Below are positions 1 through 34,561 of a stretch of DNA of 64,000 nt, in pieces. Every line of letters starts with the position of its first letter. Position 1 is the stretch's first letter. The translations under genes were made by a program, and so were the position numbers. The notes beneath the pieces were generated by a model, which saw only the letters and a list, made by a program, of their open reading frames with translations, made no database searches and was not told the DNA's origin. The stretch lies in IMG/VR virus record IMGVR_UViG_3300027733_000032; one strand, given 5' to 3'. The DNA comes from a virus.

Positions 1-151
1 ATGCACTTAATTTCTGCAACCAAGTCAGAGTCATAGGGAAACTCCGCAACGATGATGTCATCAACCAAAGTGAGAGTACTTGCCTCATCCCCTTTGTCAT
101 CACCCAACCGCTTCTTCATGCCACTCATCCTAGCCCCGCCCATACGACCCG

Positions 152-355
152 TCAACTATCAAGAGCATCATCAGCAAAGTCTCGCAACCGTGGATACGCC
201 CAACGAACAGCGAACACCAATCCGACGAGGAAGGCGACTCCCCAGTTCACGAAGCCCGAGGCAAACCCAAGCACTCCGAAAATAATCTGACTGGTCGGCA
301 AAAATAATCCCAGCAGGATGGCTACGAACAGTTTATGTTTCTTGATGAGTTCCAT
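152..355 (-). CDS. small membrane protein
   Basis: Leaderless ATG 6 nt after class A promoter; two hydrophobic segments. Confidence 0.75.
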   Translation of the reverse strand: MELIKKHKLFVAILLGLFLPTSQIIFGVLGFASGFVNWGVAFLVGLVFAVRWAYPRLRDFADDALDS

Positions 356-742
356 ACCTTAGTATCGGTAACAGTATTACGCTAGTTGTCAGATAGTTTA
401 TCCACAGGCTGAGAAGTAGACCCTACATTTACACGAAGGCACAAACATATCAAAATGATATAGATGTGACGCTTATAAGGTATAAGGGGTAAGAGTCCCG
501 ATAAATCTACCCTCAACAAATGACGGTGGTGGAAAGCAACTTGCTGATAGGAGATTCGCCCTCCCCTTCGTGCTCGCAATGGAAAAGCGCATACATCTAG
601 AAGCGAAACGACTAGATGCTGAAAGGGAGGGAGGATGGAGCCATTTGAAAGGGCAAACCGTGGCATCTCCCACCATCCTTACGAAGAAGGCGAAACATTT
701 CTTCCTCAATGGAAAGAACGGGGCTCACCAGCATAGAGACAA

Positions 743-958
743 TCACACAGAGAGAGGGCGACTCGCAAGAGAACCAAGGAACTCATTGCCATCCATCTCC
801 ATCAACGCCCAGTAAGCATCTTTGTAAGAAGGGAACACTGATTCAAAGACAACTTCACCCGTGGCTTTATTCTCCAGCGTCCCCAGAACCTCAGAGCCCC
901 GCACAGGAGCGATACGAATCAGATAGACAAGTCCATTGAGGAGCGGTTGATGTTTCAT
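743..958 (-). CDS. hypothetical protein
   Basis: ORF track; same strand as neighbours. Confidence 0.55.
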   Translation of the reverse strand: MKHQPLLNGLVYLIRIAPVRGSEVLGTLENKATGEVVFESVFPSYKDAYWALMEMDGNEFLGSLASRPLSV

Positions 959-1040
959 GTCCGCACCCTACCCACAAAGCCGTTGAGAAGCAAGTACCGA
1001 ATCTCCGGGGCTGACTCGCTCCCCTATCCAGCCCGAACCG

Positions 1041-1247
1041 TCACACTGCCCCTTCGTACTCACGGGAGTGGAGTGTCTTGCCCGCATAGCGGAGGTCGTA
1101 GGCGAACGAGATGAGCCACGAACCGATGTCATCAAAGGGGTACTCACGAGTGAACTCAAAGGCTCCACAGGCTTTACCGTCGGTCACGACAGCCGTGACA
1201 GAGATGATGTTGGTTTCTAGATTGACTGAGTAGGTGAGGTTGTTCAT
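1041..1247 (-). CDS. hypothetical protein
   Basis: Leaderless ATG after class A promoter. Confidence 0.75.
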   Translation of the reverse strand: MNNLTYSVNLETNIISVTAVVTDGKACGAFEFTREYPFDDIGSWLISFAYDLRYAGKTLHSREYEGAV

Positions 1248-1352
1248 ACTTAGGTATCGGAACAGCCGTTACCTTAGTTGGGCGAATGTTTATCCACAGG
1301 TTGTGAATAAAGTATGAGACAACTACCGTAATACTCCTACCGATATATAGAC

Positions 1353-1547
1353 ATGAGCCACTCCACCTACACCCCCTCCCCCCTGTGCGATGCCTGTAGT
1401 CTCCACGAGCCAACCATGGACTGGTACGACCATGACGAGTTCTTTTGGAACCTGTGCGACGAGTGCTTCACCCGTGACGCTCTCATGGGGGGCGAATGCA
1501 CCTCAGCCTGCGACGGGGACTACGCCTGTGCCCACAACTCCCACTAG
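1353..1547 (+). CDS. Cys/His-rich putative Zn-binding protein
   Basis: Leaderless ATG after divergent class A promoter; CDAC, CDEC and further Cys/His. Confidence 0.75.
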   Translation: MSHSTYTPSPLCDACSLHEPTMDWYDHDEFFWNLCDECFTRDALMGGECTSACDGDYACAHNSH

Positions 1548-1770
1548 TGGGCGACCACTCTGAGTGAGAAAACCACCGAGAGTGAGAGTCCCGCATCCCA
1601 CTAACACGCTTAGATAAATCTATCTGAGTGATATTGGGGGTCGTAGGGGGCTAAAAGAGCGACAAAACTCCGAAATATTTGAAAATGCCGAGAATTCGCA
1701 AGTATTTCGTCCCCTATCAGGTCTTTTGCTGCGAACGCAGAGCGTGATTCTTCACCACTCTCCGTGAGGT

Positions 1771-32101: not shown

Positions 32102-33588
32102 GCGTGAAGGTCAAGCATGATGTATCACGCCGACCTCTCCCTGAAGTATTGGGTCGTGGTGATGTAGACAAGGGCGGTGCGTGGACTGTAGAAGCCTGCC
32201 CACCTACCCGTGGACTACCCGTGACCTCTGTTGAGGGTCGCTTTATGAATGTACCTATGTCGGGCGACGCTCTGTCTACGGTCATTCGTATTCATGAGAT
32301 GGTTCATGCGAAGGTGTCCCCTAAGGACTTGAGTCCGTTCATTGCTAGGGGTTTCGCAACTGAGGAGTCACTGCGCTCTGTTGAGGAGATGCGAGTGAAC
32401 TACCTCGCTACTCACTTGGGTTATGACATGAGTGTTCTTAGTGATGGTGGCGAGAAAGAGTTAGGCGAACGCCTCGTTGCTATGGGTGACTGGAACAATG
32501 CTGTTCAGTTCGCTATCGCCACTGTTGGTACGGGCGGTCATAAGAAGTTCATCGCTGGAGTGCGCCGACATAACAAGGTATGGGGCAGTGTGCTTGCCGA
32601 CATTAGTAAGCGAGCGATGAGAGAGATAAAGAAAGTGCCACGGAACAAACTCACTAGCACCTCTCTCACTGCTGATGGTCTGATAGAAGGCTTTGGTTAT
32701 ACCGAAAGTATTGCTTCTTGGATTGACCGCCTATGCGATAAGCAACCTGATGACAAGAGTGATAAGAGTGACAGTACTGATAGTTCTGATAAGGACGACT
32801 CTGATGCTGATACCTCTGATACTGATGAGTCAAAGAGAGATGAGAAGGGCGAGATAGATAAGGCTCTTGCTGAGTCTCGTAAAGAGACTCTCGTTGATAG
32901 GACTCCTATCCCCTCTTGGTTCCCTCTTAAGGTGGAACGGTTGCCTATGCCTGAAGTATTGAGTGGGTCACTAGGTAAGAAGCGTGTCGCATCCAATAGT
33001 GGCAAACATCCTCGTCGCCTTCATCGTTACTTGACTGACCCTCAGAAGCGTGTCTTTGATAAGACGGTTCGTGGTCAAGGTGGCATCGTTGTCATTGACA
33101 CTAGTGGCTCTATGCGTCTTGACCGTGATGATGTAATGGGTATCGTTATGGCATCGCCTGGATGTACTGTGCTGTCTTATAGTGTCCCCTCATTCGGCAT
33201 TGACGATAATGGCGAGGCTATTGAGACCAATGCTTATGTCCTTGCTAGTCGTGGTCGTATGGTGGACGAGATGCCTGAGTTCGGCTCTGCTAATGCTGTA
33301 GACCTACCTGTGCTGAAGTGGGCAGTGAGTGAACGACGAAGTAGTCGCACTCCTGTCGTGTGGGTATGTGATGGGTATGTGACTGGTCATGGTGATGTGG
33401 CTCACGAGACACTGACGCTTCAGGCGGTTGAGTATTGCTTGGCTCACGGTATCTCTATCGTGCCTGATGCTGAGTCGGCTGTGAAGTACCTGACCGAGTT
33501 GAGCAATGGTATGCGACCTGCTAAGTCATTCCCTCATATCATGAAACGGGCATACGAGTTGGCGACTGGAGATAGGTTGGTCGCATAG
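32098..33588 (+). CDS. VWA-domain protein with N-terminal HExxH metallopeptidase-like motif (DUF2201-like)
   Basis: HEMVH; acidic linker; MIDAS DTSGSM; follows the AAA+ gene. Confidence 0.85.
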   Translation: MSVKVKHDVSRRPLPEVLGRGDVDKGGAWTVEACPPTRGLPVTSVEGRFMNVPMSGDALSTVIRIHEMVHAKVSPKDLSPFIARGFATEESLRSVEEMRVNYLATHLGYDMSVLSDGGEKELGERLVAMGDWNNAVQFAIATVGTGGHKKFIAGVRRHNKVWGSVLADISKRAMREIKKVPRNKLTSTSLTADGLIEGFGYTESIASWIDRLCDKQPDDKSDKSDSTDSSDKDDSDADTSDTDESKRDEKGEIDKALAESRKETLVDRTPIPSWFPLKVERLPMPEVLSGSLGKKRVASNSGKHPRRLHRYLTDPQKRVFDKTVRGQGGIVVIDTSGSMRLDRDDVMGIVMASPGCTVLSYSVPSFGIDDNGEAIETNAYVLASRGRMVDEMPEFGSANAVDLPVLKWAVSERRSSRTPVVWVCDGYVTGHGDVAHETLTLQAVEYCLAHGISIVPDAESAVKYLTELSNGMRPAKSFPHIMKRAYELATGDRLVA

Positions 33589-33614
33589 TTCTTGCCTTCC
33601 CTATAAGGTAAGTG

Positions 33615-33670
33615 GAGAGTAGTCCTCTAGTCATTGGTGGTCAGTGACTTGAGTGGCTACTCTCTTTTGT
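33615..33670 (+). terminator. hairpin terminator ending the early region
   Basis: GAGAGTAGTC...GGCTACTCTC followed by TTTT. Confidence 0.7.
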
Positions 33671-33679
33671 ATATATCAA

Positions 33680-33980
33680 GTGAGTAAGTAGTGGCGTGTA
33701 TGTAATGAGTGAGTGATATGTGATGATGATGATATAGGTAGGTAGGTAGGTAGGTAGGTAGGTAGGTAGGTAGGTAGGTAGTAGTGATGTATGTATGTAT
33801 GTGTTAGATGAGTAGTGGTAGTAGTAGTAGTGGTAGTACCCATAGCAATACCCGTAGGCACTTTTTTTACTAATGATGAAACGATGATGAGAACGAAGTG
33901 ATGATGGGGTAATGATGATGTACCTATATGTATACGAGTATGAGGGTATAGGGGTATAGGGGTAGGGGTATAGGGGTACT
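33680..33980 (+). repeat. C-poor microsatellites and G4-like tract
   Basis: (TAGG) ~11.5 copies at 33735-33780; (GAT)n, (TATG)n, (GTA)n; five G-runs at 33944-33976. Confidence 0.9.
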
Positions 33981-33984
33981 ACTT

Positions 33985-34210
33985 ATATACCCGTGATATA
34001 CCCGTGAGCATTGCGACGACTCAATGACTTAGCGATGACGACTTAGTGATGACGACTCAATGACTTGACTGTCAATGATGGTAATGATGACGAGTCAATG
34101 ATGATGACGATATGACGATGACTCAATGCTATTGACGATGACTCAATGACGATGACGATGATGTGATGCTTTGTAATACTTTGTGATACTCAGTAATACT
34201 TTGTGATACC
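33985..34210 (+). repeat. iteron-like direct repeats
   Basis: ATATACCCGTGA x2; GAYGA(C/G)TCAATG x5 (34015-34148); GTAATACTTTGTGATAC x2 (34173, 34193). Confidence 0.75.
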
Positions 34211-34281
34211 TGATAATGAATGTGATGATGAATGGGGCAACGCTGTCAATGTGTACGACATATGTAATGCCGTGTCTTGCT

Positions 34282-34561
34282 TGTGGATAAGGTGTGGATA
34301 AGGGTGTGGATAAACTTTTTTGTCATCCTCTACGACTGTCTATCTTAGGATAAGCAAGGGTTATACACAGGTTTATCAACAGGTATGTGGATAAGTAAGG
34401 GTTATCAACAGGTTGATTAAGGTGGTTATCAACAGGGTTATCAACAGGGTTGGGGATAAAGTAGGGTAAAAAGGGGTTATCAACAAGGGTGTGTATAAAG
34501 TCGGGGCTTCGTCCACATCCGTAGGCACTTATCCACAGGGTTATCAACAGACTTATCCACA
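34282..34561. promoter_or_regulatory. dense DnaA-box cluster, putative replication origin or DnaA sink
   Basis: 6 TTATCCACA, 2 TTATACACA, 6 TTATCAACA, 1 TTATCCCCA in 280 bp, many spaced 11-12 bp. Confidence 0.8.

What the first reader, a model, noticed from the sequence alone, without database searches (positions are those of the whole stretch)
132..34508. AGCCCCG heptamer enriched about tenfold, decaying left to right
Seen: 43 copies on both strands, inside and between genes: 21 in 1-10 kb, 14 in 10-20 kb, 6 in 20-25 kb, 2 in 25-34.6 kb, none noticed afterwards. About 3 would be expected in the first 25 kb. Inference: a binding or marking site, for example for an injected protective protein, a methyltransferase or a translocase, with density highest near the left end. 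No function is known to me.
Basis: seen in the sequence. Interest (0 to 1): 0.7.

Follow-up and report, generated by a model that had tools for sequence, protein, structure and literature searches.

The report
DNA word marking a phage's early block
A 7-base DNA word, AGCCCCG, is packed into the early-gene quarter of an uncultured large phage, kept there by selection and purged from the rest of the genome in its relatives, so an unidentified protein probably uses it to tell early DNA from late DNA.

Summary
AGCCCCG occurs 53 times on both strands (30 +, 23 -) between 132 and 35843 and never in 35844-64000. Dinucleotide shuffles give 4.4. The excess survives synonymous-codon shuffles (28 in-gene copies against 4.3). 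The word is sharp, with no flanking consensus. It is conserved site by site in an 89%-identical relative, including at third codon positions.

All 80 related IMG/VR loci hold the word, most with a clear excess, although their promoters differ. In five complete 148-160 kb relatives, all listed sites (two genomes read in full) lie in one 35-43 kb early block. In the rest, the word, its core GCCCCG and the variant AGTCCCG are purged.

The "decay from the left end" is a window-edge effect. Density is bell-shaped and continues left of the window.

In relatives most copies sit at cassette junctions just upstream of early promoters, in either orientation.

Best reading: a duplex word read by a conserved, unidentified protein that marks or controls the early block, closest to stoperators. 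Terminator, Chi-like, methylase and recombination readings got no support.

This scan already found the same word in two other genomes of the family.

The parts
1..35843 (.). Early block ('domain I') that holds all 53 copies of the word. It is cut by the window start and continues to the left in the close relative G007. It holds small, mostly minus-strand gene cassettes up to about 25 kb, then plus-strand genes.
   Evidence: equivalent blocks of 35-43 kb in complete relatives
1..34800 (.). Stretch purged of eight 4-bp palindromes (AATT ACGT CCGG CGCG GGCC TCGA TGCA TTAA). It is nearly co-extensive with the heptamer block. All 6 CCGG in 1-20 kb match in number the 6 AGCCCCGG copies.
132..138 (+). 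AGCCCCG copy, DNA not called as a gene
   Evidence: AGCCTCG in G007
719..725 (-). AGCCCCG copy, weakly called ORF, antisense
   Evidence: intact in G007
895..901 (+). AGCCCCG copy, in ORF 743-958(-), antisense
1006..1012 (-). AGCCCCG copy, intergenic
1813..1819 (-). AGCCCCG copy, in ORF 1771-2031(-), sense
1975..1981 (+). AGCCCCG copy, in ORF 1771-2031(-), antisense
2513..2519 (+). AGCCCCG copy, in ORF 2307-2606(-), antisense
   Evidence: not kept in G007
3037..3043 (-). AGCCCCG copy, junction upstream of the early promoter at about 2961
3179..3185 (+). AGCCCCG copy, weakly called ORF 3064-3261(+)
3372..3378 (+). AGCCCCG copy, intergenic
   Evidence: not aligned to G007
3720..3726 (+). AGCCCCG copy inside the minus-strand ORF that starts at ATG 3935, antisense (reads L-G-A)
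3830..3836 (-). AGCCCCG copy inside the same ORF, sense (reads S-P-D)
3971..3977 (+). AGCCCCG copy between a terminator-like hairpin and ATG 3935, so a junction copy
4548..4554 (+). AGCCCCG copy at a junction, 35 nt upstream of a GACGGTGGCGGAAAGGA element and upstream of the early promoter at about 4448
4759..4765 (+). AGCCCCG copy, not in a called gene
5627..5633 (-). AGCCCCG copy, in ORF 5529-5723(+), antisense
5738..5744 (+). AGCCCCG copy, intergenic, left of a strong two-way terminator hairpin
5868..5874 (-). AGCCCCG copy, intergenic, right of the same terminator
6433..6439 (-). AGCCCCG copy, 24 nt upstream of the TGTGGATAA box of the promoter at about 6365
   Evidence: its state in G007 differs between two alignments
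7155..7161 (+). AGCCCCG copy, in ORF 7092-7427(-), antisense, upstream of the promoter at about 7033
7317..7323 (-). AGCCCCG copy, in ORF 7092-7427(-), sense
7456..7462 (+). AGCCCCG copy, intergenic, just after the stop of gene 7475-7756(-)
7827..7833 (+). AGCCCCG copy, half of the only close inverted pair in the window (45 bp), upstream of the promoter at about 7764
7872..7878 (-). AGCCCCG copy, other half of that pair
8293..8299 (+). AGCCCCG copy at a junction, 22 nt upstream of GACGGTGGCGGAAAGGA
8445..8451 (-). AGCCCCG copy, in ORF 8338-8544(-), sense
9393..9399 (-). AGCCCCG copy, intergenic
9577..9583 (+). AGCCCCG copy, in ORF 9409-9819(-), antisense
10464..10470 (-). AGCCCCG copy, not in a called gene
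11485..11491 (+). AGCCCCG copy, in ORF 11356-11673(+), sense
11678..11684 (-). AGCCCCG copy, intergenic
11819..11825 (+). AGCCCCG copy, not in a called gene
12115..12121 (+). AGCCCCG copy, not in a called gene; its CCCCG forms a small hairpin with a downstream CGGGG
12845..12851 (+). AGCCCCG copy at a junction, 20 nt upstream of GACGGTGGCGGAAAGGA
13294..13300 (+). AGCCCCG copy, in ORF 13193-13489(-), antisense
13393..13399 (-). AGCCCCG copy, in ORF 13193-13489(-), sense
   Evidence: AGTCCCG in G007
14150..14156 (+). AGCCCCG copy, in ORF 14096-14365(-), antisense, upstream of the promoter at about 14068
16012..16018 (-). AGCCCCG copy, in ORF 15890-16198(-), sense, upstream of the promoter at about 15901
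16440..16446 (+). AGCCCCG copy, 14 nt upstream of the TGTGGATAA box of the promoter at about 16382
16937..16943 (+). AGCCCCG copy, in ORF 16890-17162(-), antisense
17278..17284 (-). AGCCCCG copy, in ORF 17224-17658(-), sense
18465..18471 (+). AGCCCCG copy, not in a called gene
   Evidence: not kept in G007
20181..20187 (+). AGCCCCG copy at a junction upstream of the promoter at about 20100 and of a degenerate GACGGTGG-type element
20452..20458 (+). AGCCCCG copy, in ORF 20224-20643(-), antisense
20864..20870 (-). AGCCCCG copy, in ORF 20733-21011(-), sense
22264..22270 (+). AGCCCCG copy, in ORF 22137-22355(-), antisense
   Evidence: AGTCCCG in G007
23640..23646 (+). AGCCCCG copy, in ORF 23558-23746(-), antisense
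25048..25054 (-). AGCCCCG copy in the divergent promoter region at 24.98-25.19 kb
   Evidence: AGTCCCG in G007
29286..29292 (-). AGCCCCG copy, in ORF 29233-29574(+), antisense
30563..30569 (-). AGCCCCG copy, in ORF 30449-30793(-), sense
34502..34508 (-). AGCCCCG copy inside the DnaA-box-rich, origin-like stretch
34655..34661 (+).
35837..35843 (-).
35060..35440 (-). Candidate reader only, binding not shown: a 126-aa two-domain protein (HA domain plus C-terminal helix-turn-helix). It is present in 79 related loci with an invariant helix LSRQRxHQI.

Best explanation
AGCCCCG, more exactly AG(C/T)CCCG read on either strand, is a duplex DNA word. A sequence-specific protein that is conserved across this phage family but not yet identified probably reads it to tell the early, host-takeover block from the rest of the chromosome.

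Shown here:
- The word is sharp, free of orientation and independent of reading frame.
- Individual copies are kept by selection, even at synonymous sites.
- The word stays invariant across relatives whose promoter sequences have diverged.
- It fills one 35-43 kb block, while the word, its core GCCCCG and the variant AGTCCCG are purged from the other 100-125 kb.
- In relatives about 80% of copies sit at cassette junctions, 9-45 nt upstream of the early promoters and next to, not in place of, canonical terminators.

Inferred: the bound protein controls the whole block. It most likely silences, roadblocks or insulates early transcription units. Stray sites in the long late operons would then be harmful, which would explain the purge. 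The small HA-plus-HTH protein encoded at 35060-35440 is a candidate reader and no more than that.
For: - Enrichment: 53 copies against 4.4 in shuffles. In-gene copies 28 against 4.3 +/- 1.8 after synonymous shuffles; 25 against 1.05 in non-genic DNA.
- Sharpness: one-mismatch neighbours are not enriched except AGTCCCG and AGCCCCC. There is no flank consensus in 705 unique contexts across the family.
- Any frame, sense and antisense.
- Selection on sites: 41 of 48 aligned copies are intact in G007 (89% nucleotide identity) against 56-59% for control 7-mers. In-gene copies 24/27 against 58% (p = 5e-4). Third codon positions inside the word are 93.9% identical against 82.5% outside (p = 0.013).
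- Family: the word occurs in all 80 related IMG/VR loci and exceeds its composition expectation in all of them; it ranks among the top four 7-mers in about 17. Promoter words differ between lineages.
- Domain restriction: five complete relatives hold 37-60 copies each against 3-11 for the reversed control, in one block. There are zero copies in 103 kb and 123 kb of G005 and G003.
- Purge: in 255 kb of pooled outside DNA, AGCCCCG is 0 against 6.8-14.8 expected, AGTCCCG is 1 against 7.5-16.5, CGCCCCG is 1 and GGCCCCG is 0. Neighbours such as AGCCCCA and ACCCCCG are not depleted.
- Junction position: 47/60 and 48/57 copies are intergenic in G005 and G003. 36/47 and 20/25 promoter-like motifs have 1-2 copies within 150 nt upstream, with orientation 20:19 and 16:17. 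Canonical hairpin-plus-T-run terminators lie beside them.
- Three lineage-specific arrangements exist: inverted pairs, hairpin apex and isolated singles. Only the word itself is common to all.
- A dispersed operator of this logic is known from stoperators (PMC9283540).
Against: - No binding protein is identified, and nothing here shows binding, silencing or any effect on transcription.
- Seven base pairs is short for a regulator's site.
- Distances to promoters vary, which argues against a classical activator and leaves the mode of action open.
- In G001, G002, G004 and part of G003 the copies form inverted pairs with narrow spacing (23-26 and 31-33 bp). In G005 38% sit at the apex of hairpins. 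A structural, single-strand reading therefore cannot be excluded for those lineages.
- The preferred C-to-T exchange at position 3 could also mean cytosine methylation.
- The candidate HA-HTH protein could equally read the other family-invariant motif, GACGGTGGYGGAA.
- Gene calls in the small-gene region are my own and rough.
Confidence: 0.45

Rival explanations
1. Handle for stepwise genome entry or protection of first-entering DNA. The block would be the segment injected first, as in T5 first-step transfer. An injected or very early protein, or a motor, would bind the word to hold, pull or shield this DNA until restriction is neutralised.
For: - The block coincides with a sharp purge of eight 4-bp palindromes that ends at about 34.8 kb, as expected for DNA exposed before anti-restriction functions act.
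- The same, weaker purge marks the block in G005 and G003.
- An array of DnaA-type boxes sits at the border.
- The word overrides CCGG avoidance: the 6 CCGG in 1-20 kb match in number the 6 AGCCCCGG copies.
Against: - The physical genome ends are unknown. The relatives' records close on themselves with a 127-bp overlap.
- Density is bell-shaped, not highest at an end.
- Orientation is not polar, unlike signals that steer a motor.
- A protective or pulling role does not explain why the word is purged from the rest of the genome.
- The HTH tail of the window's MuF-type virion protein is absent from five relatives that keep the word.
Confidence: 0.15
2. Structural nucleic-acid element. The word works as part of a hairpin or cruciform in RNA or single-stranded DNA, for example a terminator, a processing site or a priming signal, rather than as a duplex site.
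For: - In many relatives copies come as AGCCCCG-N16-19-CGGGGCT. Pairs closer than 100 bp are overwhelmingly in that order (about 123 against 10 in the opposite order).
- In G005 38% sit at the apex of hairpins of 6 bp or more, against 5% of control positions.
- Strand alternation exceeds chance (G003 p < 1e-4, window p = 0.036).
Against: - In the window and in G007 the copies are isolated. Only 2-4% sit at hairpin apices, the same as controls, and there is one close pair.
- Folds of the long pairs are no better than shuffles, apart from an unrelated internal terminator.
- The word is a stem in one lineage, a loop in another and unstructured in a third.
- Canonical terminators lie next to the pairs in G003 and G005, so the pairs are not the terminators.
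- In-gene copies on both strands are under selection.
Confidence: 0.12
3. Word of a host enzyme, Chi-like. The host's RecBCD or AddAB-type nuclease, or another host machine, would recognise AGCCCCG, and the phage would load its exposed early DNA with it to stop degradation.
For: - The length and sharpness are typical of Chi sites (from my own knowledge of Chi, 5-8 nt).
- The word stays invariant while phage promoters diverge, which fits a conserved host reader.
- It is enriched in the restriction-purged, probably exposed block.
Against: - Both orientations are equal and there is no polarity.
- Most copies are intergenic in relatives.
- A Chi-like site has no reason to be purged from the other 100 kb.
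- The word is not over-represented against its reversed control in two MAGs that hold ATPase relatives (Phycisphaerae, Acidimicrobiaceae), in four other genomes, or in 81 Actinomycetota genomes (largest ratio 2.3).
- The host is unknown, so this last test is weak.
Confidence: 0.08
4. Methylation or other base-modification target. A methyltransferase, from host or phage, would mark the first C of the run, and the mark would label or regulate the early block.
For: - Between close relatives, 12 of 19 single changes in the word are C-to-T exchanges at position 3, giving AGTCCCG. That is the pattern expected of 5-methylcytosine deamination.
- A short asymmetric exact word is typical of modification enzymes.
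- A DUF1599 'nucleotide modification associated' domain protein is encoded at the block border (weak match).
Against: - No C5 (PF00145) or N6/N4 (PF01555) methyltransferase family was detected in five or six relatives.
- Modification targets of defence systems are usually avoided, not enriched.
Confidence: 0.1
5. Site-specific recombination or cassette-shuffling site. This would be like the 7-bp core sites of integron attC, or the promoter-stem-loop units of T4-type phages, and would bound mobile early-gene cassettes.
For: - Copies sit at cassette junctions of a hypervariable block. Few of the window's block genes have homologues in G003 or G005.
- Inverted 7-mers with a variable spacer recall attC (from my own knowledge).
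- Two homology breaks between the window and G007 abut a copy, at 1013 and 4548.
Against: - Across 44 sequences and 497 homology-block ends there is no excess near copies: 11 within 10 nt against 15.8 expected, and 23 within 25 nt against 30.4.
- No tyrosine recombinase family was found in five complete relatives.
- In-gene copies are conserved in place.
Confidence: 0.05

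Closest known systems
Stoperators of Cluster A mycobacteriophages (L5 gp71-type immunity repressor; PMC9283540)
   Same: Both are a short asymmetric site repeated tens of times through a phage genome, in promoter regions, short intergenic spaces and genes. In stoperators the site is read by one protein that acts on many transcription units at once.
   Different: - Stoperators are 13-mers; this word has 7 bp.
- Stoperator orientation follows the direction of transcription and is needed for function. Here both orientations are equal.
- Stoperators serve lysogenic immunity of temperate phages. These 150-kb phages show no integrase.
- Here the sites are confined to one quarter of the genome and purged elsewhere.
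T5 first-step-transfer region and its injection stop signal
   Same: Both are a defined genome segment of pre-early small genes that lacks restriction sites and is bordered by a repeat- and DnaA-box-rich stretch (window; T5 features from my own knowledge).
   Different: - No dispersed word of this kind is known to me in T5.
- Physical ends and two-step entry are untested here.
- The block is 35-43 kb, not about 10 kb.
Promoter-early stem-loop (PeSL) units of T4-type hyperplastic regions
   Same: Both are repeated regulatory units at the junctions of small, variable early genes, each gene with its own promoter and a nearby stem-loop (from my own knowledge).
   Different: - PeSLs are about 70-bp homologous units thought to recombine.
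- Here only 7 bp are shared, homology breaks do not fall at them, and copies also lie inside genes.
Chi sites and their enrichment in phage P1
   Same: Both are a short exact word enriched in a phage genome (P1's Chi richness from my own knowledge).
   Different: - Chi is polar and is a host-genome word.
- This word is non-polar, purged from most of the phage genome and not enriched in any cellular genome tested.
Chromosome domain words of bacteria (matS in Ter, SlmA or Noc sites outside Ter)
   Same: Both are a protein-read word whose presence or absence defines one chromosomal domain (from my own knowledge).
   Different: Those sites are 13-16-bp palindromes in cellular chromosomes and serve segregation and division. 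Here the word is an asymmetric 7-mer in a virus.

Membership tests
Stoperator-type dispersed repressor sites | Tens of copies of one asymmetric site in promoters, short intergenic spaces and genes | tested here: met
   53 copies in the window and 37-60 in complete relatives, at junctions and in genes
Stoperator-type dispersed repressor sites | Orientation of the site follows the direction of transcription | tested here: not met
   In-gene copies are 11 sense and 17 antisense in the window and 20:28 in three relatives. Upstream of promoters the orientations are 20:19 (G005) and 16:17 (G003)
Stoperator-type dispersed repressor sites | 13-bp site bound by a monomeric immunity repressor of a temperate phage | tested here: not met
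   Only 7 bp are specified. No integrase family was found in five complete relatives. Binding is not testable with these tools.
Intrinsic terminators | G+C-rich hairpin directly followed by a T run at gene ends | tested here: not met
   Window copies are isolated, at hairpin apices no more often than controls. In G003 and G005 canonical terminators lie beside the word as separate elements.
Chi-like recombination or nuclease-attenuation sites | Over-represented and strand-skewed in the host genome | tested here: inconclusive
   The host is unknown. There is no excess over the reversed control in 6 genomes reached through protein hits or in 81 Actinomycetota genomes. Three of the 81 (G015, G032, G062) are unpublished, and the result is the same without them.
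Chi-like recombination or nuclease-attenuation sites | Polar orientation relative to DNA ends or replication | tested here: not met
   Mixed orientation along the whole block in the window, G003, G005 and G007
Restriction-modification or methylation target | A cognate methyltransferase gene | tested here: not met
   PF00145 and PF01555 were not detected above cut-off in the relatives. A host enzyme cannot be excluded.
Restriction-modification or methylation target | The base is modified in virion DNA | not testable with these tools
   This needs long-read signal data. The C3-to-T bias is only a hint.
Integron attC-like cassette recombination sites | A tyrosine recombinase, with cassette boundaries at the core sites | tested here: not met
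   No PF00589 in five complete relatives. Homology-block ends are not enriched at the word.
T5-like first-step-transfer segment | A segment free of restriction sites with a repeat-rich border | tested here: met
   Eight 4-bp palindromes are nearly absent in 1-34800 and normal afterwards. There is a DnaA-box array at 34282-34562.
T5-like first-step-transfer segment | The segment is at a physical end of virion DNA and enters first, with a pause | not testable with these tools
   Only circularly closing assemblies are available.

The most novel reading that the evidence does not exclude
The word is an address label. A conserved protein, perhaps delivered with the DNA or made within the first minutes, reads AG(C/T)CCCG to treat about a quarter of the chromosome as a separate compartment. 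That compartment would be the first-entering, restriction-exposed, host-takeover segment, held, protected or later shut off as one unit. Selection would keep the label strictly off the remaining 100 kb or more. This would be a virus-scale counterpart of bacterial chromosome-domain words and a new way of timing a phage programme.
Probability: 0.25. Interest if true: 0.85.

Novelty: new variant of a known kind. Interest (0 to 1): 0.65.

Why it matters
If the reading is right, a widespread family of uncultured 150-kb phages (125 related contigs in IMG/VR) uses a 7-bp word to separate its genome into an early compartment and the rest, with selection acting both for the word inside and against it outside.

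That would give a simple, testable handle on how large virulent phages switch off or shield their host-takeover genes, a step that is poorly understood even in T5 and SPO1. It would also give a sequence signature for finding the early block in metagenomic contigs of this family. The reader protein, once found, would be a compact 7-bp-specific DNA binder.

Tried and rejected
1. Longer motif: no flank consensus in the window or in 705 family contexts.
2. Part of the repeated promoter-like units: the 50-70-bp repeat families do not contain the word, and its distance to promoters varies.
3. Long-range RNA helices between alternating copies 100-190 nt apart: fold z-scores of -0.98, -1.72 and +0.21. 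The one strong value (-5.1) comes from an unrelated internal terminator.
5. The AAA_5 ATPase as a McrB-like DNA motor: the profile matches midasin, NorQ and CbbQ-type MoxR ATPases, not McrB. Its 496-aa partner has no PDB relative. The pair also occurs in a distant contig without the word.
6. Recombination-junction idea: homology-block ends are not enriched at the word.
7. Sigma factor (PF04542), integrase, and N6/N4 and C5 methylases: none found in the relatives.
8. Covariation test between the HA-HTH helix and the word: the helix is invariant within the family. A library-wide profile search returned almost only multi-repeat HA proteins, with three same-architecture clusters among the best 150. 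No divergent readers were available to compare.
9. Finding the window's own record: no whole genome is held, an exact 38-mer is absent from IMG/VR, and a window protein is not on record.
10. Near-identity search against isolated phages: nothing.
11. Literature search for the heptamer returned only primer-type hits.
12. One script failed on a regular-expression slip and gave no result.

Full report
**What is there.**
AGCCCCG occurs 53 times in the window (30 on the + strand, 23 on the - strand), from 132 to 35843, and never in the last 28 kb. Dinucleotide-preserving shuffles of the window give 4.42 +/- 2.06, largest 11.

The counts per stretch are:

| Stretch | Copies |
|---|---|
| 1-10 kb | 28 |
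| 10-20 kb | 14 |
| 20-25 kb | 5 |
| 25-36 kb | 6 |

The word is sharply defined. In 1-25 kb it has 47 copies against 3.2 expected. The 21 one-mismatch neighbours are at or below about twice expectation, except AGTCCCG (11) and AGCCCCC (9). GCCCCG not preceded by A occurs only twice. There is no longer consensus around it, either in the window or in 705 distinct contexts collected from the whole family, where only a weak purine preference at -1 and -2 appears.

**The setting.**
The window is part of a large, uncultured phage with no close relative among isolated phages.
- From 1 to about 25 kb it carries dozens of small genes, mostly on the minus strand. Many are preceded by a 50-nt promoter-like unit of the form TGTGGATAAAC-N6-CCAACTAACG-N10-ACCGATAC-N6-ATG.
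- From 25.2 kb the genes run rightwards. They include a MoxR-type ATPase with a 496-aa partner.
- At 34.28-34.56 kb lies a dense cluster of DnaA-type boxes, followed by a replication-initiator-like gene.
- Following a note of another first-stage reader, I confirmed that eight 4-bp palindromes are almost absent from 1-34.8 kb and normal afterwards. GATC and AGCT are absent from the whole window.

The heptamer block and the palindrome-purged block are therefore nearly the same stretch. The 6 CCGG in the first 20 kb match in number the 6 AGCCCCGG copies found in the first 25 kb.

**Is it more than codon usage?**
I called genes with a self-trained codon model. About half of the copies (25) lie in the roughly 27% of the block not called as genes. 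The other 28 lie in ORFs, in all three frames, 11 sense and 17 antisense.

Shuffling synonymous codons within each gene gives 4.3 +/- 1.8 in-gene copies (largest 10 in 1000) against 28 observed. The non-genic DNA holds 25 against 1.05 expected. Reading one case by eye confirms true in-gene copies. The minus-strand ORF that starts at 3935 holds one copy read as S-P-D and one antisense copy read as L-G-A.

**Relatives.**
The ATPase finds 125 related contigs in IMG/VR, of which 80 loci were fetched (62-99% identity). All 80 hold the word at counts above its composition expectation, and it ranks among the four most enriched 7-mers in about 17 of them. Meanwhile their own most frequent words, the promoter boxes, differ from lineage to lineage: TAGATAA, GTAGGTA, ACCCGTA, CATTATC, CCGACAA and others.

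Five complete relatives of 148-160 kb hold 37-60 copies each, against 3-11 for the reversed control word. All listed positions fall in one block per genome.

I fetched two of them whole. In G005 the copies span 101.5-144.9 kb and in G003 about 78-113 kb, with zero copies in the remaining 103 and 123 kb. The block has higher G+C and a partial palindrome purge. The density inside it is bell-shaped.

**The purge outside the block is specific.**
I pooled 255 kb of outside DNA from G005, G003 and the window's right part.

| Word | Observed | Expected (Markov order 1-4) |
|---|---|---|
| AGCCCCG | 0 | 6.8-14.8 |
| AGTCCCG | 1 | 7.5-16.5 |
| CGCCCCG | 1 | 6.8-10.2 |
| GGCCCCG | 0 | 5.0-11.5 |

AGCCCCA, ACCCCCG and AGCACCG are not depleted. 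The functional core is thus about G(C/T)CCCG with a 5' A for full strength. Even weak versions seem to be harmful outside the block.

**The gradient.**
G007, a 39-kb contig that is 82-93% identical in DNA to window 4-33668, extends 4.1 kb further left and has 7 more copies there. Its density peaks at the stretch that matches window 1-11 kb and falls on both sides. The "decay from the left end" is therefore the right flank of a bell, cut by the window edge.

**Selection on single sites.**
Of 48 window copies that align to G007, 41 are intact, against 56-59% of control 7-mers.
- In-gene copies: 24 of 27 against 58% (p = 5e-4).
- Intergenic copies: 17 of 21 against 52% (p = 0.006).
- Third codon positions inside the word: 93.9% identical against 82.5% outside (p = 0.013).

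When a copy differs between close relatives, the change is mostly a C-to-T exchange at position 3, in 12 of 19 single changes. Cytosine methylation remains possible.

**Where the copies sit in relatives.**
In G005 and G003 about 80% of copies are intergenic (47 of 60 and 48 of 57). The junctions have a clear anatomy.
- G003: gene stop, then a canonical hairpin-plus-T-run terminator, then 5-20 nt, then AGCCCCG-N17-38-CGGGGCT, then about 7-20 nt (most often 7-10), then the lineage's promoter motif TTTTGGAAATTTGGTATC.
- G005: gene stop, often a canonical terminator, then a hairpin with unique 8-14-bp arms whose apex is the word (AG-CCCCG-CT or AG-CGGGG-CT), then 8-30 nt, then the motif TTGTCGG-N3-GGGGTGGG.

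36 of 47 (G005) and 20 of 25 (G003) promoter-like motifs have one or two copies within 150 nt upstream, in either orientation (20:19 and 16:17) and without helical phasing. In the window this holds for 15 of 33.

Across the family, pairs closer than 100 bp are overwhelmingly in the order AGCCCCG...CGGGGCT, about 123 against 10 in the opposite order. Start-to-start peaks lie at 23-26 and 31-33 bp. The apex arrangement is special to G005 (38% against 5% control). In G003, G007 and the window it is at control level.

So three lineages use three arrangements, and only the duplex word is common to all. It is a separate junction element, not the terminator. In the window's lineage it has also spread into genes.

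**What reads it?**
This is not shown.
- No tyrosine recombinase, sigma-70 region 2, N6/N4 methylase or C5 methylase family was detected in the complete relatives.
- The window's 1661-aa MuF-type protein has three HTH motifs at its end, but that tail is missing from five relatives.
- Among proteins conserved with the block, the best candidate is the 126-aa protein at 35060-35440. It has an HA domain plus a C-terminal tri-helical HTH and is present in 79 loci at 45-63% identity, with an invariant helix LSRQRxHQI. Its model is confident (pLDDT 85.8), but its closest folds are only weak matches to resolvase and LuxR-type DNA-binding domains.
- That protein could equally read the other family-invariant motif, GACGGTGGYGGAA. 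A covariation test was not possible, because the helix does not vary and a library-wide search found almost no divergent same-architecture homologues.

**Host-word test.**
The only cellular-genome hits of the ATPase are a 1-kb contig in a Phycisphaerae MAG and a 128-kb contig in an Acidimicrobiaceae MAG. The latter has the ATPase pair but not the word. AGCCCCG is not over-represented against its reversed control in these or four other genomes. Nor is it in 81 Actinomycetota genomes, where the largest ratio is 2.3. Three of those genomes (G015, G032, G062) are unpublished, and the result does not depend on them. The host is unknown, so this weakens but does not exclude a host word.

**Recombination test.**
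Two homology breaks between the window and G007 abut a copy. Over 497 homology-block ends in 44 sequences, however, there is no excess near copies: 11 within 10 nt against 15.8 expected.

**Reading.**
The facts that need explaining together are:
- an exact, orientation-free 7-bp word;
- positive selection on single copies in one block;
- negative selection on the word and its near variants elsewhere;
- a position mostly just upstream of the early promoters, beside real terminators;
- invariance across lineages.

A protein that binds the duplex word and acts on the early block as a whole explains all of them. It could silence, roadblock or insulate the early units. A 7-bp specificity would also make chance sites in the long late operons a real cost, hence the purge. 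The nearest described system is the stoperator network of Cluster A mycobacteriophages (PMC9283540). The present word fails two of its defining features, orientation dependence and the 13-bp site. I therefore file it as working like that system, not as a member.

The rival that the block is the first-injected segment and the word a handle for entry or protection fits the palindrome purge. It explains neither the purge of the word outside nor the lack of polarity.

**Earlier notes of this scan.**
Two follow-up reports on other genomes (e1-5792299, e1-5792287) describe the same word, one as CGGGRCT, as a mark of the early block of related lake phages, and also name stoperators as closest. I had reached the domain restriction and the Y at position 3 before reading them. 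They are not independent evidence.

Noticed in passing
window 1-34800 against 34801-64000: Eight 4-bp palindromes (AATT ACGT CCGG CGCG GGCC TCGA TGCA TTAA) are nearly absent up to about 34.8 kb and normal afterwards. GATC and AGCT are absent from the whole window. GATC is also absent from the complete relatives G003 and G005, while AGCT is not.
   Followed up: partly
window 338-30815, about 30 copies (e.g. 356-406, 8165-8215, 15894-15944): A composite promoter-like unit, TGTGGATAAAC (or GAATAAAT) - N6 - CCAACTAACG - N10 - ACCGATAC - N6 - ATG, stands in front of the small early genes. The 'DnaA box' part is replaced by related boxes (GTAGATAAC, GTAGGTAAG) in other lineages, so it may be a phage promoter element rather than a DnaA site.
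   Followed up: partly
window 510-536, 4577-4603, 8309-8335, 12859-12885, 20196-20222, 22109-22135, 25124-25155, 34771-34797, 35484-35510: GACGGTGG(C/T)GGAAAG occurs on the + strand only. It is conserved in relatives just upstream of plus-strand gene starts. Its core CGGTGGCG resembles the RfaH ops core CGGTAGCG (from memory, untested). Four copies have an AGCCCCG 20-35 nt upstream.
   Followed up: partly
window 34282-34562 and 37093-37506: An origin-like cluster of TTATCCACA and TTATCAACA boxes lies next to a lambda-O-like replication initiator gene. A TTATCCACA cluster at the matching place is seen only in the nearest relatives (L002-L012). 79 of the 112 fetched loci have no perfect box.
   Followed up: partly
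window 39745-44730 (-): A 1661-aa protein has a MuF/SPP1-gp7-like head domain (residues 461-641) and three HTH motifs at its C end (1465-1650). The HTH tail has no counterpart in five complete relatives.
   Followed up: partly
window 5800-5850: A strong 16-bp hairpin (AAAGCCCCCCACC...GGTGGGGGGCTTT) has T runs on both strands and looks like a two-way intrinsic terminator. It accounts for two of the nine AGCCCCC copies.
   Followed up: no
window 25071-31358 (+) and 9315-23548 (-): A second repeated regulatory unit, AATAAATCT-N8-AGGTTGTTATTACTACTA...GTTCACTG-N-ATG, stands in front of other genes of the block.
   Followed up: no
window 33727-33789: A (TAGG)n tandem repeat lies just after the 496-aa gene.
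   Followed up: no
window 31355-33588; L099 10001-11967: The MoxR-type AAA_5 ATPase and its 496-aa partner also travel together in a distant 128-kb contig binned with an Acidimicrobiaceae MAG. That contig lacks the heptamer and the other conserved block genes.
   Followed up: partly
G005 100-146 kb and G003 77-115 kb (L081-L097) against window 1-25 kb: In G005 and G003 the early cassettes run in the same direction as the ATPase (72 of 90 and 61 of 70 genes on +). In the window and in G007 most run the opposite way, so the cassette block is inverted in this lineage.
   Followed up: no
window 35971-36543 and 38128-38940, 59636-60718: A DUF1599 'nucleotide modification associated' domain protein (weak match), a TauD-type dioxygenase and a group-1 glycosyltransferase hint at DNA or other hypermodification chemistry.
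   Followed up: no
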